DNA of 63,117 nt, counting the filler, from Folioceros fuciformis (taxonomy: Eukaryota): NCBI GenBank assembly GCA_049999805.1. It is 6 parts of 6 records of this genome, joined end to end, with 100 filler letters (N's around TTAATTAATTAA, not from the genome) between each part and the next. Parts side by side here need not be neighbours in the genome. Positions count along the whole stretch, not along the records: positions 17,212 to 40,246 come from JBNGIO010004421.1; 5 more parts are not named here. One strand, 5' to 3'. The notes below the pieces were generated by a model. That model worked only from the letters and a program-made list of their open reading frames with translations. It made no database searches and was not told the DNA's origin. The position numbers and the translations under genes were made by a program. Numbering within the stretch: position 1 is the stretch's first letter; each line of letters opens with the position of its first letter. Below, in pieces: positions 3,966 through 37,715 of the stretch.

Positions 3966-4599
3966 ATTGGTTTTCGAAGCGCGTGGAAGCTCGAACCAGA
4001 GGATCTACCCTCTTAACGCCGCCCTGGTCCAAAACTACAACGTAATTGCAATAACCTATGTATAAGTGTCCTAGCCCTCTCAAAGAAGATATATGAGTTA
4101 AGGACTCCGGTGGTTGGATCACGGACTGGTCGAGGGTGAGATATTTAGTTTGCAGTTGGCCATTGGGCGGCCGATAAAACCAGCTGTTTGCATAGGAAAG
4201 GCGGATGAAGTGGGGACTGCCTACACAAATCTGGCTTGTATCAGTATCCTTTGCAACACGGTCCCACCCACTGGGAGCAGCGACCCGTGTAAGACGCCAG
4301 TTGAGTCGGGATATATTTTTGCGCGGCCGTCACTATACTGCAAGCTTTCTTTTCCTCCTCGGCCCGTGCATTGCTCGTCGCCTGCGCGCCCTTCAGCTTA
4401 CCCGCTCCTCTCACAATGTTTGTGCCTGTGACGGGAATTGTGATTTGTGTGCCTTGGGGAGGGAGGAATCGCATGTGCGCGGAAACTGCATTTGCAGAGT
4501 TGTGGGAGCTTGGGATTTGGCGGTGTGTGTGAGTCGGTTCGAGTGCTTGTGTCCCGGCTGTGGAGCTGCATTTGGCTAGCTAGCTTCGAGTCTGACGGC

Positions 4600-16000: not shown

Positions 16001-16934
16001 CAAAGGATCCTTCGATACATTGGAGGCACCCCGAATAGAGGACTACTATACACCAAGTGACCAGAGAATTTGCTGCTCACTTGCTTTTGTGATGCAGATT
16101 GGGCTACTGATACAGATAGCAGGAAGTCAATCTCGGCCCATTGCTTGATGCTCGGCAAAGATGAGTTTCATTCCACCATCATTTCCTTGCATAGTAAGAA
16201 GCAGTAGGTAGTGGCCTTATCCTCCACTGAAGCTGAGTACATTGCCACCACCACAGCTGCACAAGAAATTATACATGGCCGAGAGCTGTTAGCATCTTTA
16301 GGAGAGCCTCAAACTGCACCCACACTATTACTTAGTGACAATCAATCCTCCATTGCCCTTGCTCAGAATCCAATCATGCATGCTAGGACAAAACACATAG
16401 AAATTAAACACCATTTCAGGCAAGTAGTCACTAAAGGGCAAGCCAATCTTTAGTATGTCCCAACAGAGGCAAATGTAGCTGATATCCTTATTAAAGCCCT
16501 AGCACGGGATAAGCACGAAAGGTTCTGCAAGGCAATGGGAATGGTTGAAAATCCAGATGCATAAGAATAATTTTCTACTTAGAAGGCACAACTACAAGGT
16601 ACGGCTGAGGTAGGAGGAACGCCATCGAGCTTGGAATCGCCGAAGCGGCATCACGGTGGTGCAGCGCCATCAAGGGTCTGCATCAACACATAACAAATCA
16701 GTTTTTTGTTGCTACAAAGAACTCCACCAGCAGTGGGAGCTAATTCTCGTCAAGTGCATCATTTCTGAGCATTAGCCTGTCTTCATCCGTGAATATGTCG
16801 CAGGCACCATTACAACAACATGCATGGTTGTGAGCTCTAGTTGAAGATTCGTTTTTTGGCTACTGGAGTAATCCAAAGCTTCGAGGATTTTCACCTTACC
16901 CCAACAGTAACAAGTACAAATGCAGGCTAAGTGG
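13075..16934 (+). mobile_element. Decayed Ty1/copia internal region 2 with internal deletions
   Basis: gag remnant TLSNIIGALLEEES, integrase CEACVFGKH/LELVHSDLCGP, RT YKARLVARGY, HMDVKTAFLNG, LYVDD, RNase H ALSSTEAEY/ARTKHIEIKHHF; zinc knuckle and protease core absent; PPT-like ggctaagtgggag before the right repeat. Confidence 0.93.
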
Positions 16935-17211: not shown

Positions 17212-17589
17212 GCGGTCGAGATCGCTTCCAATTTGTTGTGGAAGAAAGTGCGGGATTTCAAGTGATTGTGCTGTTGGGCGCTGCCGGAGCTTATTGGCGA
17301 TTGCACCTTGAGGAAAGTATGTGAAGGGATAGGTGATGCCTGCTTCTTGCAGGCGGAATTGTCGGGCTCTCAGCGTCTCAATGCTTCTCTGCTCAGCACT
17401 CCAGCTCAGGAGGAGGAGGTTCACCATAGCTCGCGGCTACAGACGTTACTACAGCTGTGTGCCCTAGGGGCCTTGGTTCCCTTGGCTTCATCACGCAGGT
17501 CAGGGAGAGCCAGCAAGAATTCTTCCAGGACAAGCCAACTCCCGATCTCGCGGCTTCCTTCGTAGTTGCACCACCTCAGTTTGCTCAGG

Positions 17590-20044
17590 ATGAGGAAGAT
17601 GCCGATGTTGCAGCTATCATTTATTTCCTGGCGAGGGCCTATGATCCACTCTGTGCCAGCTATTAGCACACTCCTATCCTCTCCCAAAAAGTCCAAAAAT
17701 CATGTAAAAATCTGGGGGGGAAGAGCTTCTAGTGCAACTTGCTGGCTCCTTCTCTTGGCCGTCTTTGCGTTGTTGAGTATGTCCAAGTACATGTTCGCCT
17801 GGCATCCTCAAGGATTTGAAGGCGGCTGCAGTGGCTTAACGGGACCGCAGGCAAGAGAGCAACATCTGCCGTCCCAATTCTTAGGAAGCGCGTACCCCCG
17901 GCCTCTTGAGCCGCATGCTGTAAGCTCCAATCTTACAGGGATGGAGCATACTTTTTGGGAACAGCCTGACAGCATGGGATATCGGCCTTGCGTCGTGTTT
18001 AGCGACGAATACAGAGAGGACTCAGCTCGTATGCTATCGGCGGGGAGGCGCAAATATTTGATTGTGGTCGTGAACGGTGGACTCAACCAACAGCGGAACC
18101 AGATTGTGGATGCTGTCGTAATTGCTCGCATTCTCCAGGCCACTTTGGTATTGCCTGTTATGCAGGTCAACCAGGTTTGGGGAGATGAAAGGTAATTTGC
18201 TACCGCCTTACTTTTGTTCCGGGAAGAGTGCGTCCCTTGTTTCCTGTGCCACTTGATGCCCATCGTCGGGGAGATCTTTGTCAGGCACAGTTTGTGTGGA
18301 ACTTCTTGGGAGTGTGGACTGCCATGTGTTGTCAGTACCTCTTCAATTTGTGGGACAGCATCATATTGCCCTGGATACATGTCTTTCTGAAAGTGGATGT
18401 TTGACCGGCGTGGTCGCCAATCTCGCGTCTGCGAAAAGGTGGACTCATCCCACTTGAGTGACACTCACCGATCTAGCTGGCTTCTCTCTATGCGTGCAGT
18501 GAATTTTCAGAGATTTTCGATGCCGAACACTTTAAGGCGACATTAAGGGAGGACGTCAGAGTAGTATCGTCGCTACCCTCGACGCTGTTGACAAGCAAAT
18601 TCATTATCGGAGACAAGCTCCCACTATATGCCAGCCCTGAATGGTATCGATCTCGATATGCTAAACAGGTGCGAAGCAATTGCAGAGTAGTTAAAGTGCA
18701 TCCTGTCTCACACAAGATTCTGCTCGTTTTTTAATCCCATATCAGCACCTTCCTTACAACGGATTTTTGTTACAGTTTCGCAGAAATGTTCTGCTCCTTC
18801 GAGGTCTGGACTCTAAGCTATCCAAGGATGTACCGTCAGATTTGCAGAAACTACGGTGTAAGGTACACTGAATTTATGTCTGCTCTCCAACCTATCCATT
18901 TGTGAGCGGTTGCCTAGGAGCACAGAAGAAGCAGCATTATCCTGCCTTAAAGATCATGCCTTTTACGTCCATCTTTATCTCAGCTTCGCTTATGGCCTCT
19001 CCCGTCCAGGTTGCGTTCCATGCTCTTCGATTTGCGGCACCGATTCAGGCCGTGGGTGAAATGCTGGCTAAGAGAATGTGGCAAGACGGACCTTATGTAG
19101 CTCTGCACCTCAGAATGGAGAAGGACGTCTGGGTCAGGACCGGCTGCTTGCCAGGATTGGGTCCGAAATTTGATGAAGAGGTGAACAGGACACGGGCTCA
19201 AGCGCCACAGCTGCTGACTACACGGAATACCCTGACTTACGACGAAAGGAAATTGGCCGGTCTCTGCCCCCTGAACGCCGCGGAAGTAGTCAGGTATTAT
19301 CCTCATTGTGCGTGTAGTGCTCCAAATGATAATGGCATGGGGATTACCCGTAGTCTCATGTAGTTCTGAGCGTTTGCAGCGTCCTTCATGTTCTGGTAAT
19401 GACTTTGCCGCAGGCTATTGCGAGCTATGGGAGCTACAAGAACGACGCGAATCTATTGGGCTGGTGGTGAGCCTCTAGGTGGAACAAAGGCATTGGAGCC
19501 TCTTGTCGACGCATTTCCTCATCTGTACAACAAGGAAAAACTTGCACGACCCCAGGAGCTAGAACCGTTTCGCAACAAGGCATCCAGTCTTGCAGCTATT
19601 GACTATTTGGTATCCTTAAACAGTGACGTCTTCATGCCATCTCATGGCGGCAACATGGGGCGTGCGATTCAGGTCCGTTGTCAGCCTCCTAATTCTCATA
19701 TTGTATGAACAGGCTGATTTGTGGAAACTAAAAGGACCAGCTGTCATACTTCCCCTCTAATGCTCGTTACCGCCGTGCAGGGTCACAGAGCATATGCTGG
19801 ACATCGTAAGCACATTACTCCAAACAAGAGACAGATGCTCCCATATTTTCTGGACACATCTCTACCAGAGGAGGAGTTCAATAGCATCATCCGACTCGTT
19901 CACAATGAGTCACTGGGTCAACCGACTTTGCGGACGGACAAAACAGGGAGGGACGTAATCGCTTATCCAGTGCCTGAGTGCATGTGCCAAGGGAAGGAGC
20001 CAGAATCAAGGCCAGGGTCATCCAGATGGAGCTCTGTCTTCTGA
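17590..20044 (+). CDS. O-fucosyltransferase family protein (GT106/DUF246-type, OFUT20-like); 6 exons at approx. 17590-18191, 18500-18668, 18776-18862, 19010-19293, 19414-19672, 19781-20044
   Basis: N-terminal TM segment; NGGLNQQRNQIVDAVVIARIL, YVALHLRMEKDVWVRTGC, GLCPLNA, LAAIDYLVSLNSDVF, GGNMGRAIQGHRAY, YPVPECMC. Start codon is one of several nearby ATGs. Confidence 0.93.
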
Positions 20045-24297: not shown

Positions 24298-24735
24298 CCC
24301 GGCGATCACAATGCGAGTAGCATGGATCCTCGCCTCGATTTCAAGGCTGTTCAACCTATCCTTCGTGCCCACCACCTCCCTGCTTTCAGCGCTCTCCGCA
24401 ATGGCTGCCAAAAACACTCAAGGCATCGAACCGTCCACATCCCTGTTCGACGTGTATCTCAAAGTGCAAGGAACTGTGAATATCGTTGACTGTCCCTAAT
24501 TAGCTGTCTCGAATGAGTTTGCTTTTCAGTTTCGAGATACAGTACGTGTGTACATTACGAATTGGGACGTCGCGGCGGAGCGTACGTCCATGTCCACTTT
24601 TCCATGTCCCGGTGGCCATGAAATGTTGGTTAACTCAGTCGGCTCTGGGAATCCGATGTCTCCGGATCGAATCCCGAAGGTACGTGAAGTGACAGAACGC
24701 TCATCATCTGGCGTGCTCAAGAACAGTACACGTGC

Positions 24736-27700
24736 TTGGGCTTCCAGGCATTGTCTGTCGTTAGCTCAACTCACCATCCGACAAGAGTTCAGTCAGCTCC
24801 CTGTGGGCTGTGGCCACAGTGCGGCAATCGAACCCAAGAGATTGGTGTGTGCGCAGGGATGCATGGAGGGGTTCCCGCTCATCACCTCGTCTTGGGGAAT
24901 CAATCCCTGGCAAGTGAATCATCCAGGCGCTCCAGTTTATGGCGGCCAGCACTTCCACTCCCGAGAAAATATGTGGGTGGGCACGGGTTTTCCAGCGATG
25001 GTCGTTGCAAGGAGCAAGAGCACTTGTGGCAACAATTTTTGGTGTATCCTACCGTGTGGTGGGACAACAGACGACACCAGGAGAGGTCCCGAATCTATTC
25101 GCCTCGCTTCCGGCGTAAGGGGTCTGGCGAGGTGTTGTGGTTGGAAAATGTCGTAAAGCCAGCTTGGGGTGATGAGCAGGTCGCTTCCTTGGATACGCAC
25201 ATGGGTTCCTATCCTTCCCCTTCTGAGACCAGCTCTCCGGATGTGCCTGGACCTGGGAGGCGTGCAGAATCTGAAATGGACTCCATGTATATCAGGGTGA
25301 ATAGCAAAGCACTTCCACTTCCCGGAACATGTGTGGGTGGGGACGGGTATTCCGACCATGGCCGTCGCCAGGAGCAGGAGCGTTTGTGGAAGCAATTTTT
25401 TCTGGACCCTTCCATGTGGTGGGACAACAGACGGGACAAGAAGAGCTCCCGTTCGCCTGACTTCCGGCGTAAGGGGTCCGGCGAGGTCCTGTGGTTAAAC
25501 AGCGTGTTTAAGCCAGCCTGGGTTGATGAGCATCTCGTTTCCTTGGATATGCAGATGGGTCAGGGCGCGTCTCCTTTCAATGCGAATTATCCGGATAAGC
25601 CTGGACTTGGCAGGCGTCAGGGATTGGGAATGGGCGTCGTCACGGCTGTAACCGTGACCACGTTGTGTCAGCAAGGGAAGCTCTCCGAGGCCGTTGGAGC
25701 CCTGGAATCTTTGGCGCAGACAGACTCCGCTATTTCTCAGTCTTTGCTTTGCGCTGTTCTGAAACTGTGTACAGCTAAGAAGAATTTGGTTGCGGGGCGA
25801 CGCGTTCATGAGCTGAGTGTTACTCTTGGGTACGAATCGGACGTATATTTGGGGAACCATATTTTGCGCATGTATGCACGTGGAGGTAGGCTAGAGGAGG
25901 CCATGGATGTGCTCACAAGGGTGCCCAAACCAAATGCTTTCATGTGGTCTTCCATAATCTCCGCATATGCTAAGCATGGGAAACCCACTGAGGCCGTACA
26001 ATTGTACAATGAGATGCGACGGTCAGGAGAGAAGGGGGATGAACACGTCTTTATAGCTGCCCTTCAAGCTTGTGCATTGGCTGCTGACTTGAAATCTGGC
26101 AGAAAACTGCACTGCGATGTATTGCACAGTGGCACTCCTCTTAACCTCTTTGTTGGCACCTGCCTAGTAGACATGTATGCTAAATGTGGCGAACTGAAAG
26201 ATGCACGCCAGGTTTTTGACAGCATGGCCGCAAAGGATGTGGTAACATGGAATGCCCTGGTTGCTGGATATGCAAAATGTGGTGAGCTGGAAGATGCACG
26301 CCAAGTGTTTGACAGCATGAATACGAGGGATGTGGTGACTTGGAATGCCCTGATAGCTGGGTATGCTGAGCAAGGCCTCGGACACGAGGCGCTTTTTCTT
26401 TATGAACAAATGGAGCAGGAGGGGTTGGTTCTGGCGGACCATGTGACTTTTGCTTGCCTTCTGAACACCTGTGCAAGCACTGGTGCCTTACAGAAAGGCA
26501 GGCAGCTGCACTCACAGATAGTCGAAAGAGGATTTTTGGAGAATGTCATGGTGTGCAACTGCTTGGTGGATATGTATGCCAAATGTGGTGAAGTGGAATA
26601 TGCACGCCGGGTTTTTGACGGCATGAACACAAAGGATGTGGTGACATGGACCACCCTGATTGCTGGGTATGCCGAGCAATCGCGCGGGCAAGAGGCGCTT
26701 GTTCTGTATGCGGAAATGGAGCAGGAGGGGCTGGTTTTGGCTAACTATGTCACTTTTGCTTGCCTTCTGAAGGCCTGTGCAAGCACTGGTGCCCTACAGA
26801 AGGGCAGGGAGCTGCACTCACAGATTATCAGACGAGGACTGCTGGATAACCTAGTGTTGGGCACAGGACTGGTGGACATGTATGCAAAATGTGGTGAACT
26901 GGAAGATGCACGCGAGGCGTTTGACAGCTTGGCCACAAAGGATGTGGTGACATGGACCGCCCTGATAGCTGGGTACTCACAGCAAGGACTCGGCCAAGAG
27001 GCCCTTGTTCTGTATGGACAAATGGAAGAGGCAGGCCTGATTTTGGCTAACCATGTGACCTTTGCTTGCCTGCTGAAAGCCTGTGCAAGCACCGGTGCCT
27101 TACAGAAGGGCAAACAACTGCACTCACAGATTGTTGAAAGAGGGCTGCTGGATAACGTAGTGGTGGGCACCAGCCTGGTGGACATGTATGTAAAATGTGG
27201 TGAACTGGAAGCAGCACGCCAGGTTTTTGACAGCATGAATGCAAAGAATGTTGTGACATGGACTGCCCTGATATCTGGGTATGGTACTTGTGATGAAGGT
27301 CTCAAGGCACTATCTTGTTTTGAGGAGATGTTAGATGCCGGTATTCAGCCTAATGAGTATACTTTTACTTGCCTTCTAGTAGCGTGCAGTCACGAGGGAT
27401 TGGTCCGTGAGGGTCGCAAGCACTTCGATTCCATGGCTGAACAGCATGGCATTAGACCGAGTATTGAGCATTACACCTGCATGATCGATCTTCTTGGGCG
27501 CGCAGGCCATTTAGATGAGGCTGAGAAAATGTTACTGTCATGCGAGGGCCAAAGTGACGTTGTGGGATTGATAACTTTGTTGAATGCCTGCAAGAGTCAC
27601 GGGGATATTGAAAAGGCGATGTGGTGTTTTGAAAGAATTGTTAGGCTGGACCCCCAGGATGCCCGCCCATATGTGCTCATGGCTAACGCTTATGCGGATG

Positions 27701-28164
27701 CAGGTAGGTGGACGGATGTAGATAGGATTGAAACACAAAGAATGGTAGCAGGGGCTAACAAGAAACTTGCAGTGGCGACCATTGAGGTGAATAAGCAGGT
27801 ACATCAATACGTTGTGGGAGATATGAGAGAGGATATTGTGCTTCAGGTAGAGAGTACGAATGCTCGTGTGAAGCAGGAAGGTGGCCACGTACCTCACACG
27901 AAGTTGGTGTTGAAGCCAGTGTGTGAGAAGGAAAAGGAAGACGTACTATGTGGACATGCTGAGAAGCTAGCCCTGGCATTTGGTCTCCTGAACACTCCGA
28001 GTGGGACACCTCTAGTGGTAACTAAGAATCTACGCATGTGCAGTGACTGCCACAGCTCGACGGCGATCATGTCAAGGCTTGAACAGAGAGACATTGTTGT
28101 CAGGGATGGGTACCGTGTGCATCGATTCGCAGCTGGTACTTGCAGTTGTAAGGGTCGATTGTAA
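24736..28164 (+). CDS. PLS-class PPR protein with E1/E2 and DYW:KP-type deaminase domain (ends GRL); two N-terminal PDF-like motifs; start uncertain (ORF opens at TTG 24736, first in-frame ATG 24859)
   Basis: Intronless ORF; P-L-S triplets, P2-L2-S2, E motifs, KKLAVATIEV, HAEKLA, KNLRMCSDCH, HRF..GTCSC. Confidence 0.93.
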   Translation: MGFQALSVVSSTHHPTRVQSAPCGLWPQCGNRTQEIGVCAGMHGGVPAHHLVLGNQSLASESSRRSSLWRPALPLPRKYVGGHGFSSDGRCKEQEHLWQQFLVYPTVWWDNRRHQERSRIYSPRFRRKGSGEVLWLENVVKPAWGDEQVASLDTHMGSYPSPSETSSPDVPGPGRRAESEMDSMYIRVNSKALPLPGTCVGGDGYSDHGRRQEQERLWKQFFLDPSMWWDNRRDKKSSRSPDFRRKGSGEVLWLNSVFKPAWVDEHLVSLDMQMGQGASPFNANYPDKPGLGRRQGLGMGVVTAVTVTTLCQQGKLSEAVGALESLAQTDSAISQSLLCAVLKLCTAKKNLVAGRRVHELSVTLGYESDVYLGNHILRMYARGGRLEEAMDVLTRVPKPNAFMWSSIISAYAKHGKPTEAVQLYNEMRRSGEKGDEHVFIAALQACALAADLKSGRKLHCDVLHSGTPLNLFVGTCLVDMYAKCGELKDARQVFDSMAAKDVVTWNALVAGYAKCGELEDARQVFDSMNTRDVVTWNALIAGYAEQGLGHEALFLYEQMEQEGLVLADHVTFACLLNTCASTGALQKGRQLHSQIVERGFLENVMVCNCLVDMYAKCGEVEYARRVFDGMNTKDVVTWTTLIAGYAEQSRGQEALVLYAEMEQEGLVLANYVTFACLLKACASTGALQKGRELHSQIIRRGLLDNLVLGTGLVDMYAKCGELEDAREAFDSLATKDVVTWTALIAGYSQQGLGQEALVLYGQMEEAGLILANHVTFACLLKACASTGALQKGKQLHSQIVERGLLDNVVVGTSLVDMYVKCGELEAARQVFDSMNAKNVVTWTALISGYGTCDEGLKALSCFEEMLDAGIQPNEYTFTCLLVACSHEGLVREGRKHFDSMAEQHGIRPSIEHYTCMIDLLGRAGHLDEAEKMLLSCEGQSDVVGLITLLNACKSHGDIEKAMWCFERIVRLDPQDARPYVLMANAYADAGRWTDVDRIETQRMVAGANKKLAVATIEVNKQVHQYVVGDMREDIVLQVESTNARVKQEGGHVPHTKLVLKPVCEKEKEDVLCGHAEKLALAFGLLNTPSGTPLVVTKNLRMCSDCHSSTAIMSRLEQRDIVVRDGYRVHRFAAGTCSCKGRL

Positions 28165-29869
28165 CAATAATGAAGCAGCCAGTGCTCAAGTGTGTGCCCC
28201 CACAAGAATACTGTCTTCGGAGTCAGTGTGCTTGCTTGTAGCAAGACAGCGTGGACTTGCAAGTTCGTGCAATTTGTGGGTGTGGAAGCAAAGCTTCTCA
28301 TCTACAGGATTCTGGGACCAGAGGTCCGATGTTGGTGCCGGTATCAGCATCTTCAACTTGGTTGTTTATGCTGTTCCTGGTTTGCCGAGGGAGTGGATCC
28401 TGAGCGCCCAGGGTGGTCCTGCTTGCCAGTAGCGTGGCGATGGATGCGCATGATGTCTCCAGACTTGGCAGGATCCCTACAACAACTCCTTGCAAATTTA
28501 CTAGTGTCGGGATAATTCTATGACGTATTCTGGTCAGGCAATGATGCGGGACAACATGAAAATTTGGACTGCTTAACAGCACAGGTTGGGTTTGAAACAG
28601 CTGACCCAAATAAGCCTTGACTGGTTCGTAGCTGACTGGTCACGTGAGGTACCTGAGATAGTGGCTCCTCAGTGAATGTCCATGGACCTGTGATCGCAAG
28701 GACTTGACATGAGGCCAAAGACAACCCTCCTTGACATGCTCCCGACAGGTTCTTTTCCCCCTCGTCGTAAAGACTAGCCTTAAAAGAAGGAAGGTTATAA
28801 CCTGAGCTCAGCACCAAAGAGCAGAAGGGGCAAGGAGTCTTCTCAAGGAGTCTCTGTCTGAAGATACTGAAAGACCTTAACTGTTGGGTGTGGATCAAGA
28901 AGTCAAAACAGCGAAACTAGGAGGAGCACTACTCCAAAGGCTCAAGAGCCCCGCCAAGCCCAACCAGAGAGGCCTCAAAATTAATTGAGCCACGTCTCTC
29001 CCCATACGAGGAGAGAACTGAAATTTTCCGTATCCCTGCTCTGTGGGGGAACTATGCTTGGACCGCTCAAAACGAGAGGCCGCTATGTAGTTGATGAACC
29101 ATTTGAAATTGGCCATGTATATTACTGTAAACAATAGGTGGCTACACCTTTCCTCCATCCTCCACCGGAGACTCTTGTATCCTTCCACTGAGACCCTTTT
29201 ATGGCTAGCTAGACCCAACCTGGAAGTCTGAAGAGAGTATGATCAAGGAAATAAGCAAAGCAAGCAAATAAGAAAAGGAATAAAGAGGATGCAGGAACAA
29301 GGATGAACATCAAGGATAAGTATGAGAGGCCATGTGTTATTCATGTTGGACATAAGTAACTACATAATTAAACAGTAATCGGTACTTTTCCTAAAGTAGA
29401 GGGAAATGAGCAGTTCATTTGGAGGCCAGGCGACGTCAGTTTTTCTTGCCTTCCACCATTGGATTGATTTGTACAGGCTCGCCAAGTTTCCTCTTCGTCT
29501 TCCACCATTCCAGATTCGCAATTGGCGTTCCATGACACAACCCAAGACCTGAGCTCAAGTAAATAGTAAACTGAGCAGCGTTAGATTTATCTCCCACTGA
29601 CTATCAAACAAGGTGCCCAACGACAAAGATATTTGCTTGTGCGGTTTGTACCGATGGATGTGTGATCTTTTGCACGGTTGCATTGAATGTCTTTAACAGT
29701 TACCTGCACGTTCCTTCAGCAGAATCATTTTCTTGTTAGGTGTCTTAGGATCCACTGTTATGTGATGGAGCCTAGCCTAACGCCGTTTGCTTTCTGTCAT
29801 GGTTGCGCTGATTTCTTTTGTCCCACTCTATCGCCCTTGAGCACTGGTTACTTCTCCGTTCTTATCTCA

Positions 29870-32776
29870 TCACGGTTGACCCTTACAACTGCAAAACCCA
29901 CCTGCGAATCGATGTACACGGTACCCATCCCTTACAACAATGTCTCTATGTTCAAGCTTTGACATGATCTCCGTGGAACTGTGGCAGTCACTGCACATGC
30001 GTAGGTTCTTCGTGACCACGAGAGGTGTCCCACTTGGAGTGTTCAAGAGACCATACGCCAGAGCTAGCTTCTCAGCATGCCCACAAAGCTCATCTTCCTT
30101 TTCACTCTCACACAGTGGCTTCAATACCAAATTCGTGTGAGGGACGTGGCCTCCTTCCTGCTTCAGAATTGCATTTGTGCTCTCGACCTTGAGTGCGATA
30201 TCCTCTCTTCGTTCTCCCACAAAAAATCTATGCACCTGCTTGTTCACCTCAATGGTTGCCACAGCAGGTTTCTTGTTAGCTCCTGCGACCACTCTCCGTG
30301 TTTCTATCCTCTCTACATCGCTCCATCTCCCTGCATCTGCGTAGGCATTGGCCATGAGCACATATCCCGAAGCGTGCTGAGGCTCCAGTCTAACAGCACT
30401 TTCAAAACAGCGAATCGCCCTCTCTAAATCCCCGTGATTTCTGCATGAATTCAGCAAGGATCTCAATCCCACAACATTACCTTGCTCCTCACACGATAGT
30501 AGCATGTTCTCTGCCTCATCTAAATGGCCTGCACGCCCAAGCAGATCGATCATGCAGTTGTAATGCTCAACGGCAGGTTTCAGGCCATGCTGTTTAGCCA
30601 TGGACCCAAAGAGCGTACGCCCCTCGTCCACCAGTTCCTCATGACTGCAGGCTACTAAAAGGCAGGTAAAAGTAGAGCCATCAGGTTGAATACCCGCTTC
30701 TAGCATCTCCTCAAAACAAGCTAATGCTCTGCGACCATCATCACAAGTACCATACCCAGATATTAGGGTATTCCATGTCACCACATCCCTTGTGTTCATG
30801 CTGTCGAAAATCCGGCGTGCATCTTCCAGCTCACCGCATTTTGCATACATATCTACCAGGCAGGTGCCTAGCAGTATGCTATGCAGTAGTCCTCGTTCCA
30901 CAATCTGTGAGTGAAGCTGACGACCCTTTTGTAAGGCACCAGTGCTTGCACAGGCCTTCAGAAGGCAACCAAAAGTAACATGGTCACCCAGAATCAGGCC
31001 CTCTTCCTCCATTTGGCCATACACAACAAGTGCTTCTTGGCCAAGCCCTTGCTCAGCATACCCAGCTATCAGTGTGGTCCACGTCACCACATTTTTTGTG
31101 TCCAAGCTGTCAAAAACCTGGCGTGCATCTTCCAGTTCCCCGCATTTCACATACATGTCTACCAGGCTGTTGCCCAACACTACGTTTTCCAGCAGTCCTC
31201 TTTCCACAATTTCTGAGTGCAGCTGTTTGCCCTTCTGTAAGGCACCAATACTTCCACAGGCCTTAAGAAGGCACGCAAAAGTAACATGGTTACCTACGAT
31301 CAGGCCCTCCTGCTCCATTTGTTCATATACCACAAGTGCCTCGTGGCCGAGCCCATGCTGGGCATAGCCAGCAATCAATGCCGTCCATGTGACCACGTTC
31401 TTTAAGACCAGACTGTCAAAAGCGTGGCGTGCATCTTTCAGTTCACCACATTTTGCATACATGTCCACAAGGCAAGTGCCCACTAGTACGTCATCCAGCA
31501 GTCCCTTTCTGACAATTTGTGAGTGCAGTTGCTTACCCTTCTGCAAGGCACCAGTATTTCCACAGGCCTTCAGGAGGCAAGCAAAAGTAACATGATCAGG
31601 CGAAACGCGGCCCTCTTGCTCCATTTGTCCATACAGAAGAAGCGCCTCCTGGCCAAGTCCTTGCTCTGTATATCCACATATCAGAGCATTCCATGTCACC
31701 ACATTCTTCGTGGCCATGCTGTCAAATACCTGGCGTGCATCTTTCAGTTCGCGACATTTTGCATACATGTCCACCAGGCAGTTGCCAACAAACACATTGG
31801 TAAGAATGCCACTGTGCAACACATCAAAGTGCACGTGTCTGCCAGAATCCAGGTCGCCTGCAAGTGCACAAGCTTGGAGGGTAGCCACAAAGACGTGACC
31901 ATTTGCCTTCACTCCTGACCTACGCATTTCATGGTACAACTGTATGGCCCGAATTGGTTTCCCATGTTTACCATGTGCAGAGATGATGGAACCCCACGTG
32001 ATAACATCTGGTTGGCCTACTCTGGTGAACACATCCATGGCCTCCTCTAGCCTACCTCCACATGCATACATGCGCAATATATGGTTCCCCACGTAGGCAT
32101 TCGACTCGTGCCCAAGTTTGACACAGAGATCGTGAACGCGTCGCCCCACAACTAAATCCTTCTTAGCGGTACACAGTTTCAGCACAGTGGCAAACAGGGA
32201 CTGAGAGATAACGGAGTCAGTCTGCACCAAAGATTCCAGTGCTCCAACGGCCTCAGAAAGCTTCCCCTCTTGACATAGCCTGCTCACAGTTCCACCTGTC
32301 ACAACGTCCGTTTCTGAGCCAGCACGCCTTCCAGCTTCAGGTTTTTCGAGAAAGCTCGATGAAGGAGAGGCATGACCCATCTGCATATCCAAGGAAACGA
32401 GCTCCTCATCAACCCAGGCAGGTTTGAACTTGTTGTTCAACCACAGGACCTCGCCGGACCCCTTACGCCGGAAGTCAGGTGAACGGGAGCTTTTCTTGTC
32501 TCGCCTGTTGTCCCACCACATGCCAGGGTCCAGGAAAAATTGCTGCCACAGCTTCTCCTGCTCCTGGCGACGACCATTGCTGACTAACCCGCCCCCATCC
32601 AAACATTCTCTCGGAAGTGGAAGTGCTGGACTCCTTACACTGCTGCACATGCAGTGTTGGTTGTTTGCCACAGATTGACTCCCTGAGATGAGGTGAGCGG
32701 GAGCTCTTCGTCCAACCCCGGTGCACCTACCCATTTGTTGGGTCCACAACGGGTCCGGTTGCCATACTGTGGCCAT
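29870..32776 (-). CDS. PLS-class PPR protein with DYW:KP-type domain (ends GQP); one N-terminal PDF-like motif
   Basis: 968-aa intronless ORF; KKPAVATIEV, HAEKLA, CSDCH, CSCKGQP. Confidence 0.95.
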   Translation of the reverse strand: MATVWQPDPLWTQQMGRCTGVGRRAPAHLISGSQSVANNQHCMCSSVRSPALPLPRECLDGGGLVSNGRRQEQEKLWQQFFLDPGMWWDNRRDKKSSRSPDFRRKGSGEVLWLNNKFKPAWVDEELVSLDMQMGHASPSSSFLEKPEAGRRAGSETDVVTGGTVSRLCQEGKLSEAVGALESLVQTDSVISQSLFATVLKLCTAKKDLVVGRRVHDLCVKLGHESNAYVGNHILRMYACGGRLEEAMDVFTRVGQPDVITWGSIISAHGKHGKPIRAIQLYHEMRRSGVKANGHVFVATLQACALAGDLDSGRHVHFDVLHSGILTNVFVGNCLVDMYAKCRELKDARQVFDSMATKNVVTWNALICGYTEQGLGQEALLLYGQMEQEGRVSPDHVTFACLLKACGNTGALQKGKQLHSQIVRKGLLDDVLVGTCLVDMYAKCGELKDARHAFDSLVLKNVVTWTALIAGYAQHGLGHEALVVYEQMEQEGLIVGNHVTFACLLKACGSIGALQKGKQLHSEIVERGLLENVVLGNSLVDMYVKCGELEDARQVFDSLDTKNVVTWTTLIAGYAEQGLGQEALVVYGQMEEEGLILGDHVTFGCLLKACASTGALQKGRQLHSQIVERGLLHSILLGTCLVDMYAKCGELEDARRIFDSMNTRDVVTWNTLISGYGTCDDGRRALACFEEMLEAGIQPDGSTFTCLLVACSHEELVDEGRTLFGSMAKQHGLKPAVEHYNCMIDLLGRAGHLDEAENMLLSCEEQGNVVGLRSLLNSCRNHGDLERAIRCFESAVRLEPQHASGYVLMANAYADAGRWSDVERIETRRVVAGANKKPAVATIEVNKQVHRFFVGERREDIALKVESTNAILKQEGGHVPHTNLVLKPLCESEKEDELCGHAEKLALAYGLLNTPSGTPLVVTKNLRMCSDCHSSTEIMSKLEHRDIVVRDGYRVHRFAGGFCSCKGQP

Positions 32777-34365
32777 CGATCAGGAACAACTGTCGGAAAC
32801 CTCGTTGTCTTAACAACAGACAATGGCAGGACACCCGGCTACAAACCGTGTGTGACCACATCATACGGGCTGACTCCGAAATGTTGGCATTGAATGCAAC
32901 TAGTACTTGAATGGGGCACATACAACGTGCGACATGCAACTTGCAACCGCTGTACACGAAAACATCTATGTGCAATTGAAATGATACCCAGGACACAAGG
33001 GTCTTCCGTGTGAATTTTTATCAAACGTCAGACAAACATCAGCCCAGTGACCAACAGCTTCGACGTATGCGAAGATGTGTGCGGCAAAACTTTTGAGAGC
33101 GTTCATGTCAAGCCTACGCTAGTTGAAATAATAGTGCGCGTTTTGCGGCGTGTACTTCAGTTCATGAGCTCAAAAAAGGACACGGTAAACTGACTCAGGT
33201 GGCCAAGCGCCTCGTTGAAGAAGTCCGGGGTGCAGGAGTATCGACAATTCTGGGAGAGGGGCACCAATTGATCAGATGTTCCTGAGTGTATATGGTGTGT
33301 ACAAGCCAGATGGTTGACAAATCGGAAATATTCACCTGCAATAGTAAGGAGGAGGATAAATCTGATCAAGGCGATTCCAATCATCAGTAATGATTCACAC
33401 ATCCACCTAATTTTTCTATACAGTTCATTGGTCAACAAGCTGCTATACAAAGCACGAACAAGCAGGAAACCCAGGTTACCGCAAAGTCTGCAGGCGAGAA
33501 TGGTCGATAGCAACCAGTCCAACTTGAGACCTAGGCCCTGGCTGTCACCAAGCCAATTTGTCCGACGACAGCAGTGGGGCAATTTGTCTCGCCGAATCAC
33601 AAGCAGTGAAGCCTGTATCTTATATGGAGGCTTGCACTGTCCTACGGAAGCTTTCTCCCGTTTCCGACTTCGGGGCCTGCTGAGAAGCGTATCGGCTTGC
33701 TCATCCAAACCTGGATTTGAAAGCCAATTTGTCGTGACATGGGAACCAGCTTCACTTTCACTTCAACCAAAATTGGCACAGCGCCATGTAGAAAATCATC
33801 TGCATGTACATTTCATTTCAGGATTGCATGACGAATGGCTGCATCAGATTAAACCTGAGATCAGGAGTTTTCAACTTTCAGGAGTCCACAAGTAAGTATC
33901 CACAGCCCTTTTCTTATGTCTACCCTTGGATAATCAACTGCAGCCAACTGCTCGGCATACTGTCAGGCACAAGCACTTGCACACCATCAGAAGGCAAGAA
34001 CAAGTATAGCCAACAGCAGCCATCAGGCCCTCCTGCTCCACTTTTTGAGACACAAATGACTCTTGTCCGAGCCCAAAATCTGCTTACCCATGTATGCATT
34101 CGATGGGCATGTTCCCCAGATATTCCAAGGCGGGAGCGTGTTGCCAGTTGTGGCCACGCAGTCAAATATCCGGCATCTTACCATTCGCTACATTTTGCCA
34201 ATGCCCACGAGTTTATCTTACACAAGACAAGGTCATCGCACTGGAGAATCAACAAAAAGCTGATCCCGCCACCCTGGTCAACACCGTAACACGTGTGCGA
34301 GAACTGGAGTACCTCGATTGTGGAAAGCCTTGCATTTGATCCGAAGGGTGAATACCTCATCCTGA

Positions 34366-37164
34366 TCACGGTCGACCCTTACAACTGCAAGAACCAGCCG
34401 TGAATCGATGCACACGATACCCATCCCTTACAACAATGTCTCTCTGTTCAAGCTTTGACATGATCTCCGTTGAACTGTGGCAGTCACCGCACATGCGTAG
34501 ATTCTTCGTTACCACCAGAGGGGTACCACTTGGAGTGTGTAAGAGACCAAAAGCCAGAGCTAGCTTCTCAGCATGCCCACAAAGCGCATCTTCCTTTTCC
34601 TTTTCACAAACTGGCTTCAATACCAGCTTTGTGTGAGGTGTGTGGCCTCCCTCGTGCTTCAGACGTGCATTCATGCTCTCTACCTTAATCGCAATATCCT
34701 CCCTTCGTTCTCCCACCAAAAACCTATGTACGTGCTTGTTTACCTCGATAGTCGCCACAGCAGGTTTCTTGTTAGCTCCTGCTACCATTCTCTGTGATTC
34801 AATCCTGTCTACATCAGTCCACCTACCAGCATCTGCGTAGGCATTGGCCATGAGCACATATGCAGCTGCCCGTTGAGGTTCCAGTCTAACAAGGCTTTCA
34901 AAACACCAGATTGCTCTCTCTATATCCCCGTGACTTTTGCACGCATTCAGCATAGATGTCAATCCCACAACATTACTTTGGCCCTGGCATGAGGAAAGCA
35001 TCTTCTCTGCCTCATCTAAATGGCCCGCACGCCCAAGAAGATCAATCATGCAATTGTAATGCTCAGTAGAGGGTCTGATGCCGTGCTGTTCAGCAATGGA
35101 CCCGAAGAGCTTACGACCCTCATCCACCAGTCCCTCATGACCGCATGCTACTAGTAGGCTAGTGAAAGTAGCACCATCAGGCTGCATACCAGCAACTAAC
35201 ATCTCCTCAAAACAAGTTAGTGCTCTGTGACCATCGTCACAAGTACCATACCCGGCTATCAGAGCATTCCATGTCACCACATCCTTTGTGGCCATGCTGT
35301 CAAAAACCTGACGTGCATCTTTCAGTTTCCCACATTTTGCATACATGTCTACCAGGCCGTTCCCCACCTGCACATTATCCAACAGTCCTCGTTCGATGAT
35401 TAGTGAGTGCAGCTGTCTGCCCATCTGTAAGGCGCCCGTGCTTGCACACGCCTTTAGAATGCAAGCAAAAGTAGCATGGGTAGCTAAAATGAGGCCCTCT
35501 TCCTCCATTAGTCCATACAGAACAAGTGCCTCGTGGCCAAGCCCTTGCTCAGCATACCCAGCTATCAGGGCATTCCATGTCACCACATTCTTTGTGTTCA
35601 TGCTGTCAAAAACGCGGTGTGCATCTTTCAGTTCACCACATTTTGAGTACATGTCCACCAGGCAGGTGCCCACCAGTACATTGTCCAGCAGTCCTCTTTT
35701 GACAATAAGTGAATGCAGCTGCCTGCCCTTTTGCAAGGCACCAGCGCTTGCACAGGCCTTCAGAAGGCAAGCAAAAGTAACATCATTAGCCACAATGAGG
35801 CCTTCTTGCTCCATTTGTCCATACACAACAAGAGCCTCTTGGCCAAGCCCTTGCTCGGCATACCCAGCTATCAGGGCGGTCCATGTCACCACATTTTTTC
35901 TTTCCAAGCTGTCAAAAACCTGGCGTGCATCCTCTAATTGACCACATTTTGCGTACATGTCCACCAGGCAAGTGCCCACCACAGCGTTATCCAGAAGTCC
36001 TCTTTCAACAATTCGTGAGTGCAGCTGCCGGCCCTGCTGTAAGGCGCCAATGCTTGCACAGGCCTTCAGAAGGCAAGTAAAAGTAACATGGTTCGCCATC
36101 AGGCCTTCCCGCTCCATTAGTCCATACACAAGAAGTGCCTCTTGTCCAAGACCTTGCTGGGAATACCCAGCAATCAGCACGGTCCACGACACTACATCCT
36201 TTTCGGCCATGCTGTCAAAAACCCGGCGTGCATCTTTCATTTCGCCACATTTTGCATACATGTCCACTAGGCAGTTGCCAACAAAAAAATTAGTAGGAAT
36301 ACGACTCTGAACCACATCAGAATGCACTGTTCTGCCGGCTTCCAAGTCGGCGGCTAATGCACAAGCTTGGAGGGCAGCTACGAAGACGTGTGCATCCATC
36401 TTCACCCCTGACCTACGCATCTCATGGTAGAGTTGTATGGCCTCATTAGGTTTCCCATGCTTGGCGTATGCAGAGATTATGGAAGACCACATGAAGGCAT
36501 CCGGCTTGCCCACCCTGGTGAGCACATCAAGGGCCTCCTCCAGCCTGCCTCCACATGCATACATGCGCAAGATATGGTTCCCCAGGTATGCATTTGACTC
36601 GTACCCAAGTTTGACAGCTATATCATGAATTCGTCGTCCAACAACCAAATCCTTCTTAGCTGTACACAGTTTCAGTACAGAGCAAAACAGAGCCTGAGGA
36701 ATACCGGAGTCTGCCTGTGCCAAAGCTTCCAGGGCCCCAACGGCCTCACATAGCTTCCCCTGCTGACATAACATGCTCACAGTTCCAGCAGTTACCACGT
36801 CCATTTCCGATCCTGCACGTCTCCCAGGAGAGCTCCACTTGGAAGTAGAAGCATCCTGACCCGTGTGCACATCCAAGGGGATCAGCTGCTCATCAAACCT
36901 AGCTGGCTTGAACTTCTTTAACGATAGGACCTCGTCGGTTCCTTTCTGATCCCGGCGACGATCAGGGTTGGAAAACCCGTCCCAACGCACGCAGTTTCTC
37001 CCAAGGGAAAGTGCTGAGCTCCTTACACTGCTCCACCTGGAGCCATGGTTGTTTGCCAAAGGTCGACTCTCTGAAGTGAGGAGAGTGGAACCTCCATGTA
37101 CAATTCCTCTACACACAGCAATTTGTTGAGTCCACAACGGGTCAGGTTGCCACACTGTGGCCAT
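34366..37164 (-). CDS. PLS-class PPR protein with DYW:KP-type domain (ends GRP); PDF-like motif deleted
   Basis: 932-aa intronless ORF; KKPAVATIEV, HAEKLA, CGDCH, CSCKGRP. Confidence 0.95.
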   Translation of the reverse strand: MATVWQPDPLWTQQIAVCRGIVHGGSTLLTSESRPLANNHGSRWSSVRSSALSLGRNCVRWDGFSNPDRRRDQKGTDEVLSLKKFKPARFDEQLIPLDVHTGQDASTSKWSSPGRRAGSEMDVVTAGTVSMLCQQGKLCEAVGALEALAQADSGIPQALFCSVLKLCTAKKDLVVGRRIHDIAVKLGYESNAYLGNHILRMYACGGRLEEALDVLTRVGKPDAFMWSSIISAYAKHGKPNEAIQLYHEMRRSGVKMDAHVFVAALQACALAADLEAGRTVHSDVVQSRIPTNFFVGNCLVDMYAKCGEMKDARRVFDSMAEKDVVSWTVLIAGYSQQGLGQEALLVYGLMEREGLMANHVTFTCLLKACASIGALQQGRQLHSRIVERGLLDNAVVGTCLVDMYAKCGQLEDARQVFDSLERKNVVTWTALIAGYAEQGLGQEALVVYGQMEQEGLIVANDVTFACLLKACASAGALQKGRQLHSLIVKRGLLDNVLVGTCLVDMYSKCGELKDAHRVFDSMNTKNVVTWNALIAGYAEQGLGHEALVLYGLMEEEGLILATHATFACILKACASTGALQMGRQLHSLIIERGLLDNVQVGNGLVDMYAKCGKLKDARQVFDSMATKDVVTWNALIAGYGTCDDGHRALTCFEEMLVAGMQPDGATFTSLLVACGHEGLVDEGRKLFGSIAEQHGIRPSTEHYNCMIDLLGRAGHLDEAEKMLSSCQGQSNVVGLTSMLNACKSHGDIERAIWCFESLVRLEPQRAAAYVLMANAYADAGRWTDVDRIESQRMVAGANKKPAVATIEVNKHVHRFLVGERREDIAIKVESMNARLKHEGGHTPHTKLVLKPVCEKEKEDALCGHAEKLALAFGLLHTPSGTPLVVTKNLRMCGDCHSSTEIMSKLEQRDIVVRDGYRVHRFTAGSCSCKGRP

Positions 37165-37715
37165 CCTTCAGGGACCACTACCGGAAGATGAGCATAACAA
37201 CATAGTGTGCCAGGCTGCCGATGTAAATGGAGTACCGTGTCTCACCCAAATCAGACGGAGCCTGACTCAGGCTCCGGTGTACATAAAGTACTGCGTATCA
37301 CCAAATCAGACAGGGGCAGCCTTCGATGAGTCGAACAGAGTCAGCCGCTTTCACATCGATACCGATAGCCATCCCACATGTAGATCCATCACCTACAGTC
37401 ATCCAACGGGCATATGCACATACAGGTTGGAAGGCGAGGGAAGGTAAGCCACGCCATCATCCGGTTGAGGTTGAGACCCCGTTGCGTTCTACTTTTATAT
37501 TGCAAATGCGTTATTGCAAGGTCACGGGACGACAATGCTGGGTAAGAATCATCCCCAGCGTCAAATGTCTACGGGCTGATGTAGTGACAGGCGCTTCCAC
37601 AATGGTGGTAAGGACGCTGTCATCTTAAGTCACACTAGTGTACCTATTTACAGCCACAGGCCACTCGAATCGCAAGGCTTGGTTGGTGCATGCTCCTAGA
37701 ATCTCGAAACAAATG

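What the first reader, a model, noticed from the sequence alone, without database searches (positions are those of the whole stretch)
24736..37164. OSB-type PDF single-stranded-DNA-binding motif fused to PPR-DYW:KP editing deaminases
Seen: ahead of the PPR array these proteins carry LWQQFFLDPGMWWDNRRDKKSSRSPDFRRKGSGEVLWLNNKFKPAWV (32411-32551, minus strand; also 25384-25524 and a degenerate copy at 25024-25170), in the same uninterrupted ORF as the PLS array and the HAEKLA/CxxC deaminase domain. Established: W..FF..P..WWDNR..K....PDF..K..G..LWL...P.WV is the PDF motif of plant organellar ssDNA-binding proteins (OSB/pTAC9 family), where it mediates ssDNA binding; DYW:KP domains are the candidate U-to-C RNA editing enzymes of hornworts, lycophytes and ferns. 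Inference: the architecture transit peptide-PDF-PLS-E-DYW:KP could tether an editase to nucleoids or transcription bubbles, supply a built-in non-specific single-strand-binding cofactor, or allow action on ssDNA. I do not know of a description of this fusion but could not search for one.
Basis: partly seen in the sequence, partly recalled or inferred. Interest (0 to 1): 0.9.

Follow-up and report, generated by a model that had tools for sequence, protein, structure and literature searches.

The report
OSB-type PDF motif on PPR editing factors

Summary
Three intronless PLS-E-DYW genes sit in tandem: A 24859-28164 (+), B 29870-32776 (-) and C 34366-37164 (-). All three have DYW:KP-type features. 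B carries one N-terminal copy of the motif and A carries two. C keeps only the motif's tail after an in-frame loss of the core.

The motif is a true homologue of the OSB PDF motif. A profile of the three window copies found 626 proteins at E<=1e-3 among 1.84 billion. Of the best 150, 81 have an SSB-like domain, and it lies upstream of the motif copies in 79 of them. Some hits are named OSB2 or OSB3 by their sources. An HMM built only from those OSB-type copies scores B at 72.9 bits, against 3.0 at most for 200 shuffles.

The fusion is not unique and not KP-specific. Ten of the best 150 are PPR proteins with N-terminal PDF, one of them a canonical DYW protein.

The motif core is under purifying selection (dN/dS 0.12). 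It folds as a separate small domain between a disordered presequence and a flexible linker.

Function is inferred, not shown. I found no description in print.

The parts
24859..28164 (+). Gene A: intronless ORF of 1101 aa. Order: short presequence, PDF copy 1 (degenerate), linker, PDF copy 2, linker, PLS PPR array, E motif, DYW domain. HAE active site; KL in place of KP in the PG box; ends GRL.
   Evidence: ORF; Pfam PPR, E_motif and DYW_deaminase (E 4e-33); alignment. The frame is open from 24688, but the ATG homologous to the start of B and C is absent.
25024..25170 (+). PDF motif copy A1 (gene A residues 56-104), degenerate: PRF for PDF, 2-residue insertion, 12 of 15 OSB-conserved columns kept.
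   Evidence: (51.4 bits against the OSB-only PDF HMM)
25384..25524 (+). PDF motif copy A2 (gene A residues 176-222), intact: 15 of 15 OSB-conserved columns kept.
   Evidence: (73.1 bits)
27883..28155 (+). DYW_deaminase domain of gene A (residues 1009-1099).
29870..32776 (-). Gene B: intronless ORF of 968 aa. Order: presequence (about 1-64), PDF motif, linker, PLS PPR array, E motif, DYW:KP domain. KP in the PG box, HAE, ends GQP.
32411..32551 (-). PDF motif of gene B (residues 76-122), intact: 15 of 15 OSB-conserved columns kept. The predicted folded module spans about residues 66-134.
   Evidence: (72.9 bits)
29879..30151 (-). DYW_deaminase domain of gene B (residues 876-966).
   Evidence: E 1.6e-31
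34366..37164 (-). Gene C: intronless ORF of 932 aa with the same architecture, but the PDF core is deleted. KP in the PG box, HAE, ends GRP.
36877..36948 (-). Remnant of the PDF motif in gene C (residues 73-96, C-terminal third of the motif only).
   Evidence: gap of 31 alignment columns; -1.8 bits, no match
34375..34647 (-). DYW_deaminase domain of gene C (residues 840-930).
   Evidence: E 4.7e-33

Best explanation
What it is: a tandem cluster of three paralogous, intronless nuclear genes for PLS-class PPR proteins with E and DYW:KP-type (GRP-variant) domains. These are candidate organellar U-to-C RNA editing factors.

The added module: two of the three carry a genuine homologue of the about 50-residue PDF motif, which is otherwise found C-terminal to the SSB-like domain of plant OSB proteins. 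It sits between a disordered presequence and the PPR array. Gene A has two copies, gene B has one, and gene C lost the core by an in-frame deletion.

Wider family: they belong to a group of PDF-PPR proteins that also includes canonical DYW and DYW-less members.

Likely mechanism (inferred): after import and removal of the presequence, the PDF module hangs on a flexible linker of about 20-25 residues. It is rich in aromatic and basic residues: 5 W, 4 F, and 10 K/R against 5 D/E. It adds non-sequence-specific binding of single-stranded nucleic acid at the N-terminal end of the PPR array. By the established polarity of PPR-RNA binding, that is the 5' side of the target.

It could do this in one of two ways:
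- It could hold the factor on single-stranded DNA of the nucleoid or transcription bubble.
- It could clamp the unstructured RNA upstream of the PPR footprint.

I cannot tell these apart here. The module is helpful rather than indispensable, since one paralogue lost it.

Shown: the architecture, the homology, purifying selection on the core, and the independent fold. Inferred: organelle targeting, nucleic-acid binding by these copies, and any effect on editing.
For: Architecture: uninterrupted ORFs with PPR, E_motif and DYW_deaminase.

Homology to the OSB PDF motif:
- A profile of the 3 window copies finds 626 proteins at E<=1e-3, 183 at <=1e-10 and 17 at <=1e-30 among 1,835,955,588.
- Of the best 150, 81 have an SSB-like domain, and in 79 of those 81 it lies upstream of the motif copies. 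Another 10 are PPR proteins and 59 are motif-only arrays or fragments.
- Pfam SSB (PF00436) was seen in 7 of 10 OSB-sized hits at E<=0.01, 3 of them above Pfam's own cut-off.
- Direct hits P0093 and P0117 are named OSB3 and OSB2-like by their sources. Relatives of hit P0039 are named OSB1, OSB2 and OSB3.
- An HMM from 186 motif copies of the 81 SSB-bearing proteins scores B at 72.9 bits, A2 at 73.1 and A1 at 51.4. 200 shuffles score 3.0 at most.
- B and A2 keep 15 of 15 columns that are at least 80% conserved in OSB-type copies.

Selection: dN/dS of the motif core, A2 against B, is 0.12 (10 synonymous and 6 non-synonymous changes). It is 0.21-0.23 for the PPR-DYW part and 0.57-0.69 for the whole N-terminal region.

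Fold:
- The 76-residue module was predicted with mean pLDDT 86.6 and pTM 0.72, as helix, short strands, helix.
- In a 330-residue model, residues 1-64 and 136-155 are below pLDDT 50. The module (block means 88-95) and the PPR helices (93-97) are confident.

Literature: in OSB proteins the PDF motif is about 50 residues, occurs in one or more copies and binds ssDNA. The OSB1 motif alone suffices (passages of PMC6963530, PMC4166229 and PMC13393729).
Against: - Gene C lost the motif core yet keeps a full ORF under similar constraint (dN/dS 0.21-0.22 in the PPR-DYW part). The motif is therefore not required for whatever C does.
- Copy A1 is degenerate, with 12 of 15 conserved columns.
- The closest KP-type relative, P0087, also keeps only 12 of 15 and scores 44.9 bits. 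This suggests relaxed constraint in some lineages.
- Gene A lacks the start codon shared by B and C, so its N-terminus is uncertain.
- Recombinant OSB1 and OSB2 are reported to prefer ssDNA over dsDNA or RNA (passage of PMC4166229). A role on RNA is therefore not the default expectation.
- There is no expression evidence. The only strong holder of the sequence also covers the intergenic DNA without differences, so it is DNA.
- The selection estimate rests on 47 codons.
- The OSB-type motif copies used for the HMM were themselves found with a profile of the window copies. The independent elements are their SSB domains and their source names.
Confidence: 0.8

Rival explanations
1. Nucleoid or ssDNA tether. 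The PDF module binds single-stranded organellar DNA (transcription bubbles, R-loops, replication intermediates). This concentrates the editing factor where nascent RNA emerges, so that editing becomes co-transcriptional.
For: The family precedent is ssDNA binding, with preference over RNA (passages). B and A2 keep all 15 OSB-conserved columns. The module sits on a flexible linker, as expected for a tether.
Against: No binding or localisation data exist for any PDF-PPR protein. A paralogue does without the motif. The PPR array already gives strong RNA affinity.
Confidence: 0.35
2. Built-in RNA clamp. In the PPR context the PDF module binds the single-stranded RNA 5' of the PPR footprint. It raises affinity or keeps the target unfolded, as a cis-acting substitute for trans cofactors.
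For: The module is N-terminal to the array in all 10 PDF-PPR hits and in genes A and B. That places it on the 5' side of bound RNA (polarity from established knowledge, not tested here). Its composition is aromatic and basic. PDF is found with E-type, DYW:PG and DYW:KP proteins, which fits a general RNA-handling aid.
Against: OSB1 and OSB2 are reported to prefer ssDNA over RNA. No RNA-binding data exist for any PDF motif in the passages I read.
Confidence: 0.3
3. Protein-protein or oligomerisation module. It might, for example, recruit OSB proteins or other PDF-bearing proteins rather than binding nucleic acid in this context.
For: OSB2 is reported to be a tetramer (passage of PMC6963530). Motif-only arrays of up to 13 copies exist, so the motif works in repeated, possibly cooperative settings.
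Against: The cited passage does not assign tetramerisation to the PDF motif. No interaction was tested here.
Confidence: 0.1
4. Decaying relic. The fusion arose once by exon or retrogene shuffling and is now neutral baggage carried along as the PPR family expanded.
For: Loss of the core in C, a degenerate A1, and a weakened copy in P0087.
Against: dN/dS of the core between A2 and B is 0.12 at dS about 0.47, lower than in the PPR-DYW part. 11 of 16 PPR-linked copies keep 15 of 15 conserved columns, and 14 of 16 keep at least 13. The fold is predicted with confidence.
Confidence: 0.1

Closest known systems
PDF motif of plant organellar ssDNA-binding proteins (OSB1-OSB4 of Arabidopsis and their relatives)
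   Same: The same motif of about 50 residues. All 15 strongly conserved columns are kept in B and A2: W, P, W-D-R, K, P-D-F, K, L-W, P-W, L. Profile matches run in both directions. It can occur in tandem copies, as in gene A.
   Different: In OSB-type proteins the motif follows an SSB/OB-like domain (79 of 81). Here there is no SSB domain. The motif is N-terminal and is followed by a PPR array and a deaminase-like domain.
PPR-DYW:KP proteins (GRP variant), the candidate and synthetic U-to-C editing factors of hornworts, lycophytes and ferns
   Same: PLS array, E motif and DYW_deaminase. KP in the PG box (B and C), HAE instead of HSE, CxxC, and a non-DYW C-terminus: GRP, GQP or GRL. The criteria come from passages of PMC11845758 and PMC9478123.
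   Different: An extra folded N-terminal PDF module. The passages I read in those papers do not mention one. The designer proteins start directly with the PLS domain.
Other accessory-domain fusions of RNA-editing factors (RRM-PPR, MORF-PPR, RanBP2 Znf-PPR) catalogued in PMC13386178
   Same: A PPR array joined in one polypeptide to a second module that handles nucleic acid or acts as a cofactor.
   Different: That survey has no occurrence of OSB, PDF or single-stranded in its main text. Pfam has no model that matches the motif, so domain-based surveys would miss it.

Membership tests
PDF motif (domain level) | Motif of about 50 residues with the conserved Pro-Asp-Phe signature | tested here: met
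   B and A2 have SPDFRRK within a 47-residue conserved block. A1 has PRF instead. The definition is from passages of PMC6963530 and PMC4166229.
PDF motif (domain level) | Significant profile match to motif copies from proteins with the OSB architecture (SSB-like domain followed by the motif) | tested here: met
   An HMM of 186 copies from 81 SSB-bearing proteins scores B at 72.9, A2 at 73.1, A1 at 51.4 and C at -1.8 bits. 200 shuffles score 3.0 at most. In the reverse direction, hits named OSB3 and OSB2-like score E 4.8e-14 and 7.8e-13.
PDF motif (domain level) | Binds single-stranded DNA | not testable with these tools
   Known for OSB1 and OSB2 only, from literature passages. It needs EMSA with the isolated module.
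OSB protein family (whole protein) | Central SSB/OB-fold-like domain N-terminal to the PDF motif(s) | tested here: not met
   Pfam finds no SSB domain in A, B or C at E<=1. The rest of each protein is PPR, E and DYW. These are not OSB proteins. They share only the motif.
PPR-DYW:KP | PLS-class PPR array with E motif and DYW deaminase-like domain | tested here: met
   PPR, E_motif and DYW_deaminase are found in all three, with DYW at E 4e-33, 1.6e-31 and 4.7e-33.
PPR-DYW:KP | Lys-Pro instead of Pro-Gly in the N-terminal (PG) box of the DYW domain | tested here: met
   B and C read NKKPAVATIEV. A reads NKKLAVATIEV, so KL and not met in A. The criterion is from PMC11845758 and PMC9478123.
PPR-DYW:KP | HAE (Ala or Cys, not Ser) in the HxE...CxxC zinc site | tested here: met
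   GHAEKLA and C(S/G)DCH are present in all three.
PPR-DYW:KP | C-terminal triplet other than DYW (the hornwort variants are DRH and GRP) | tested here: met
   The ends are GRL (A), GQP (B) and GRP (C). The variants are named in PMC9478123.
PPR-DYW:KP | Conserved active-site lysine (Lys88 of designer KP6) | tested here: inconclusive
   A lysine precedes NLRMC in all three. I did not align to KP6, so the numbering is not verified. The paper says this lysine is also conserved in DYW:PG.
PPR-DYW:KP | U-to-C editing activity | not testable with these tools
   By the passage read, the activity of natural KP proteins remains unknown.

The most novel reading that the evidence does not exclude
A whole subfamily of plant PPR editing factors uses an OSB-derived PDF module to dock on single-stranded organellar DNA, such as transcription bubbles, R-loops or replication intermediates. 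Pyrimidine editing would then be physically coupled to transcription. In the boldest form, the DYW:KP domain would also reach the displaced DNA strand. My estimate for the DNA-acting form alone is at most 0.05.
Probability: 0.2. Interest if true: 0.85.

Novelty: new variant of a known kind. Interest (0 to 1): 0.62.

Why it matters
Plant organellar editing factors are understood as a sequence-specific PPR array plus a DYW enzyme, helped in some lineages by trans-acting cofactors. A conserved, independently folded ssDNA-binding motif built into the N-terminus of some of them gives a concrete, testable handle on three questions:
- where editing happens, at the nucleoid or co-transcriptionally as against on free RNA;
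- how seedless plants that edit heavily manage without some of the angiosperm cofactors;
- whether a small added module could improve the designer C-to-U and U-to-C editors now being engineered.

It also widens the known range of the PDF motif beyond OSB proteins. The same search turned up PDF-PPR proteins and motif-only arrays of up to 13 copies. Recent surveys of either family do not mention these in the text I could search.

Tried and rejected
Sequence and family searches that gave nothing:
- Pfam has no model matching the N-terminal region at E<=1.
- The word-indexed protein search found nothing with the 76-residue module against longer proteins, or with residues 60-140 of B against proteins of PPR length. 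That index needs shared 5-mers, so this is weak evidence.
- ESM Atlas: no usable hit for residues 55-140. The whole protein gives only generic PPR/DYW clusters of Streptophyta.
- PDB by sequence profile: best E 0.28, a 22-residue chance match to chlorophyll a/b-binding proteins.
- PDB by fold: Foldseek best E 3.4. VIA-align over 48,161 chains gave a best Z of 4.7 and none at 5 or above. This is no usable fold match, and it does not show that the fold is new.

Sources that were not available:
- No whole genome is held for the window.
I cannot give the taxonomic range of the fusion.
- Earlier findings of this scan returned nothing.

Expression:
- No RNA holder is listed.
- Run X1 covers the intergenic stretches 28129-29549 and 32976-34398 without differences, so it is DNA of the same or a near-identical genome.
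- Runs X2, X6 and X10 hold only short contigs about 90% alike over the coding parts, including the motif region. They cannot show a transcript of these genes.

Tree of motif copies:
- A tree of 378 motif copies places all 16 PPR-linked and window copies in one 53-tip clade (support 0.79), and 11 of them in a 14-tip clade.
- Support inside that clade is weak (0.19-0.74) on 74 columns. I do not claim a single origin of the fusion.

Literature limits:
- Zaegel et al. 2006, the paper that defined the PDF motif, is not held. I could not check whether it mentions PPR proteins.
- Supplements are closed. Table S1 and Fig. S1 of PMC13393729 and the tables of PMC13386178 might list such proteins.

A complex prediction was not run, because I make no claim that particular proteins bind each other.
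Full report
**What is in the sequence**

Between 24.8 and 37.2 kb the window holds three long uninterrupted ORFs and no others of 300 aa or more:
- gene A, 24859-28164 (+), 1101 aa;
- gene B, 29870-32776 (-), 968 aa;
- gene C, 34366-37164 (-), 932 aa.

Pfam finds PPR repeats, an E motif and a DYW_deaminase domain in each. The DYW E-values are 4e-33, 1.6e-31 and 4.7e-33. Nothing matches the N-terminal 150-250 residues at E<=1.

Both lie in gene A. One copy is intact at residues 176-222. One is degenerate at residues 56-104, with PRF for PDF and a 2-residue insertion.

Gene C aligns with B over its whole length. The exception is a gap of 31 columns that removes the core of the motif and leaves only its last third. 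Six-frame scans of the whole window find the motif at these three places only.

**Are the deaminase domains of the KP type?**

Passages of PMC11845758 and PMC9478123 give the criteria:
- Lys-Pro for Pro-Gly in the N-terminal box of the DYW domain;
- Ala or Cys instead of Ser after the zinc-binding His;
- a variable C-terminal triplet, with hornwort variants named DRH and GRP.

In the alignment, B and C read NKKPAVATIEV and A reads NKKLAVATIEV. All three read GHAEKLA and C(S/G)DCH. The proteins end GRL, GQP and GRP. They are DYW:KP-type proteins of the GRP variant, with A slightly off in the KP box. By the passage, the activity of natural KP proteins has not been shown.

**Is the N-terminal motif the OSB PDF motif?**

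According to the passages read, the PDF motif:
- is about 50 residues long and is named after a conserved Pro-Asp-Phe;
- lies in one or more copies C-terminal to the SSB/OB-like domain of OSB proteins;
- binds ssDNA, the motif of OSB1 being sufficient on its own.

I tested homology in both directions.

First, a profile of the three window copies (alignment A1) was scored against 1,835,955,588 cluster representatives. It found 626 proteins at E<=1e-3, 183 at <=1e-10 and 17 at <=1e-30. Only the best 150 are listed, and all counts below refer to those.

All 150 contain the motif, 396 copies in all, with 1 to 13 per protein. They divide as follows:

| Class among the best 150 | Number |
|---|---|
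| SSB-like domain present (by a local HMM seeded on Pfam-located SSB regions) | 81 |
| PPR proteins | 10 |
| Motif-only arrays or fragments | 59 |

In 79 of the 81 SSB-bearing proteins the SSB-like domain lies upstream of the first motif copy.

Pfam itself found SSB (PF00436) in 7 of 10 OSB-sized hits at E<=0.01, 3 of them above its own cut-off. It also found SSB weakly in 2 of 10 long hits.

Source names confirm what these proteins are. Hit P0093 is "Protein OSB3, chloroplastic/mitochondrial" and hit P0117 is "protein OSB2, chloroplastic-like". Their E-values are 4.8e-14 and 7.8e-13. The relatives of hit P0039 include many proteins named OSB1, OSB2 and OSB3.

Second, an HMM was built only from 186 motif copies of the 81 SSB-bearing proteins and scored against the window proteins:

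| Sequence | Score (bits) |
|---|---|
| Gene B | 72.9 |
| Gene A, copy A2 | 73.1 |
| Gene A, copy A1 | 51.4 |
| Gene C remnant | -1.8 |
| 200 shuffles of B's N-terminus | 3.0 at most |

B and A2 keep 15 of the 15 columns that are at least 80% conserved in OSB-type copies. A1 keeps 12. The consensus of those copies follows the pattern W..L...P..WWDNR..K.NP..PDFKHK.TGEALWL....P.WV.

The motif is therefore a true PDF motif. The proteins are not OSB proteins, because they have no SSB domain.

**How common is the fusion?**

Ten of the best 150 representatives are PPR proteins with the motif at the N-terminus, starting at residue 1 to 81. All ten begin with Met.
- P0087 (753 aa) is a KP-type DYW protein ending GGRP.
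- P0128 (564 aa) is a canonical DYW protein, with a PG box, HSE, and the ending RDYW.
- P0006 (1371 aa) has three N-terminal copies and ends after its E motif.
- The others end in or before the E region, and some are probably truncated records.

So the combination exists in several independent database records and is not specific to DYW:KP. With only 2 DYW-bearing cases, no enrichment test is possible. The other 476 hits were not listed, and the look-up that would have named these proteins was unavailable. The taxonomic range is unknown to me.

In a tree of 378 motif copies, all 16 PPR-linked and window copies fall into one 53-tip clade together with some SSB-bearing proteins. Resolution on 74 columns is weak.

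**Is the motif maintained?**

| Comparison | dN/dS |
|---|---|
| Motif core (47 codons), A2 against B | 0.12 (10 synonymous, 6 non-synonymous changes; dS 0.47) |
| PPR-DYW part, the three gene pairs | 0.21-0.23 |
| Whole region before the PPR array | 0.57-0.69 |

The core is thus the best-conserved part of an otherwise fast-evolving N-terminus. The estimate rests on few sites.

Against an essential role, gene C lost the core and remains an intact, constrained ORF. Copy A1 and the copy in P0087 are weakened.

**Shape**

With a 41-row alignment, AlphaFold2 predicts the 76-residue module with mean pLDDT 86.6 and pTM 0.72. The elements are a helix, three short strand elements around the WWDNR and PDF positions, and a second helix.

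A 330-residue model of B shows four zones:
- residues 1-64 below pLDDT 50;
- the module at block means of 88-95;
- residues 136-155 again below 50;
- PPR helices at 93-97 from residue 161 onward.

This is the picture of a disordered presequence, a small independent domain, a flexible linker and the array. The presequences have few acidic residues and many Ser, Thr and Arg. No targeting predictor was available.

No solved structure resembles the module by sequence. None resembles it by fold either: Foldseek's best E is 3.4, and VIA-align's best Z is 4.7.

**Mechanism**

Nothing here shows function. My inference has four steps.
- The motif binds ssDNA in OSB proteins.
- The diagnostic residues are all kept in A2 and B.
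- The composition is aromatic and basic: 5 W, 4 F, and 10 K/R against 5 D/E in 47 residues.
- The module sits at the N-terminal end of the array, which by the established polarity of PPR-RNA binding is the 5' side of the target.

From these I take it to be an auxiliary binder of single-stranded nucleic acid that is not sequence-specific. There are two readings:
- a tether to single-stranded nucleoid DNA, which fits the reported preference of OSB1 and OSB2 for ssDNA over RNA;
- a clamp on the RNA upstream of the footprint, which fits its occurrence with E-type, PG-type and KP-type proteins alike.

These cannot be separated with the tools at hand, and I rate them about equal. A protein-interaction role and a decaying relic are less likely, for the reasons given under the rival explanations.

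**Is it in print?**

The searches and their results:
- "PDF motif" with PPR, pentatricopeptide or OSB1 found no paper on such a fusion (listings).
- OSB with DYW gave one irrelevant table hit.
- The motif's five-letter core gave one unrelated preprint.
- A 2026 survey of OSB and PDF evolution (PMC13393729) has 22 occurrences of PDF and none of PPR, pentatricopeptide or fusion in its main text.
- A 2026 kingdom-wide survey of domain fusions in editing factors (PMC13386178) has no occurrence of OSB, PDF or single-stranded.

The limits are these:
- Zaegel et al. 2006 is not held.
- Key subscription papers on DYW:KP proteins may not be in the library.
- Supplements are closed.

Within these limits the fusion appears undescribed. 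Because Pfam has no model for the motif, domain-based surveys would not see it.

**Verdict**

The identification of both halves is supported by tests. The functional ideas remain hypotheses.

It is a new variant of known kinds, namely a known editing-factor architecture with a known ssDNA-binding motif added. It is present in more than this locus, is not restricted to KP-type enzymes, and is dispensable in at least one paralogue.

Noticed in passing
search hits P0004, P0005, P0010, P0012, P0015: Some proteins consist largely of tandem PDF motifs, with 9 to 13 copies in 719-1160 residues, and have no SSB domain or only a weak one. The passages I read of the 2026 OSB survey report at most five PDF domains per protein, in Amborella.
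   Followed up: partly
search hit P0056: A 1526-aa protein has three PDF copies near residues 189-246, followed by a kinesin motor domain (Pfam Kinesin E 1.8e-86). My local HMM also finds an SSB-like region in it. It may be a merged gene model of an OSB gene and a kinesin gene.
   Followed up: no
window 25960-26060 (gene A, within the PPR array): Relative to B and C, gene A has an extra block of 31 residues, KDVVTWNALVAGYAKCGELEDARQVFDSMNT. It repeats the neighbouring motif, so the array has one added repeat unit. Together with the duplicated PDF module of about 120 residues, this shows that A has undergone two internal tandem duplications.
   Followed up: partly
window 24688-24858: Gene A's frame is open upstream of its first ATG. 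The region homologous to the MATVWQP start of B and C is present but has no ATG. A's true start and presequence are therefore uncertain.
   Followed up: partly
window 3383-3982 (+): A degenerate PPR fragment, interrupted by stop codons, is 24-46% identical to several PLS repeats of gene B. It is probably a PPR pseudogene.
   Followed up: partly
window 8366-12127 and 13137-16060 (+): Two frameshifted Ty1/copia-type retrotransposon remnants lie here. Pfam finds gag_pre-integrs, rve, SH3_retrovirus and RVT_2 in the first, and Pol_BBD and RVT_2 in the second.
   Followed up: partly
window 17566-20044 (+): A multi-exon gene for a GDP-fucose protein O-fucosyltransferase family protein (Pfam O-FucT in two separate ORF pieces).
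   Followed up: partly
whole window: The window has 22 runs of N totalling 1460 bases. They come in recurring lengths of 10, 44 and 100, often as paired 44-base runs 12 bases apart. None lies within 24300-37600.
   Followed up: no
window 24744-37175, runs X2, X6, X10: Runs labelled as two other coded organisms hold very many short contigs that are 90-99% alike to the coding parts of all three genes, including the PDF region, and none over the intergenic DNA. This suggests large families of closely similar PDF-PPR genes in relatives.
   Followed up: partly
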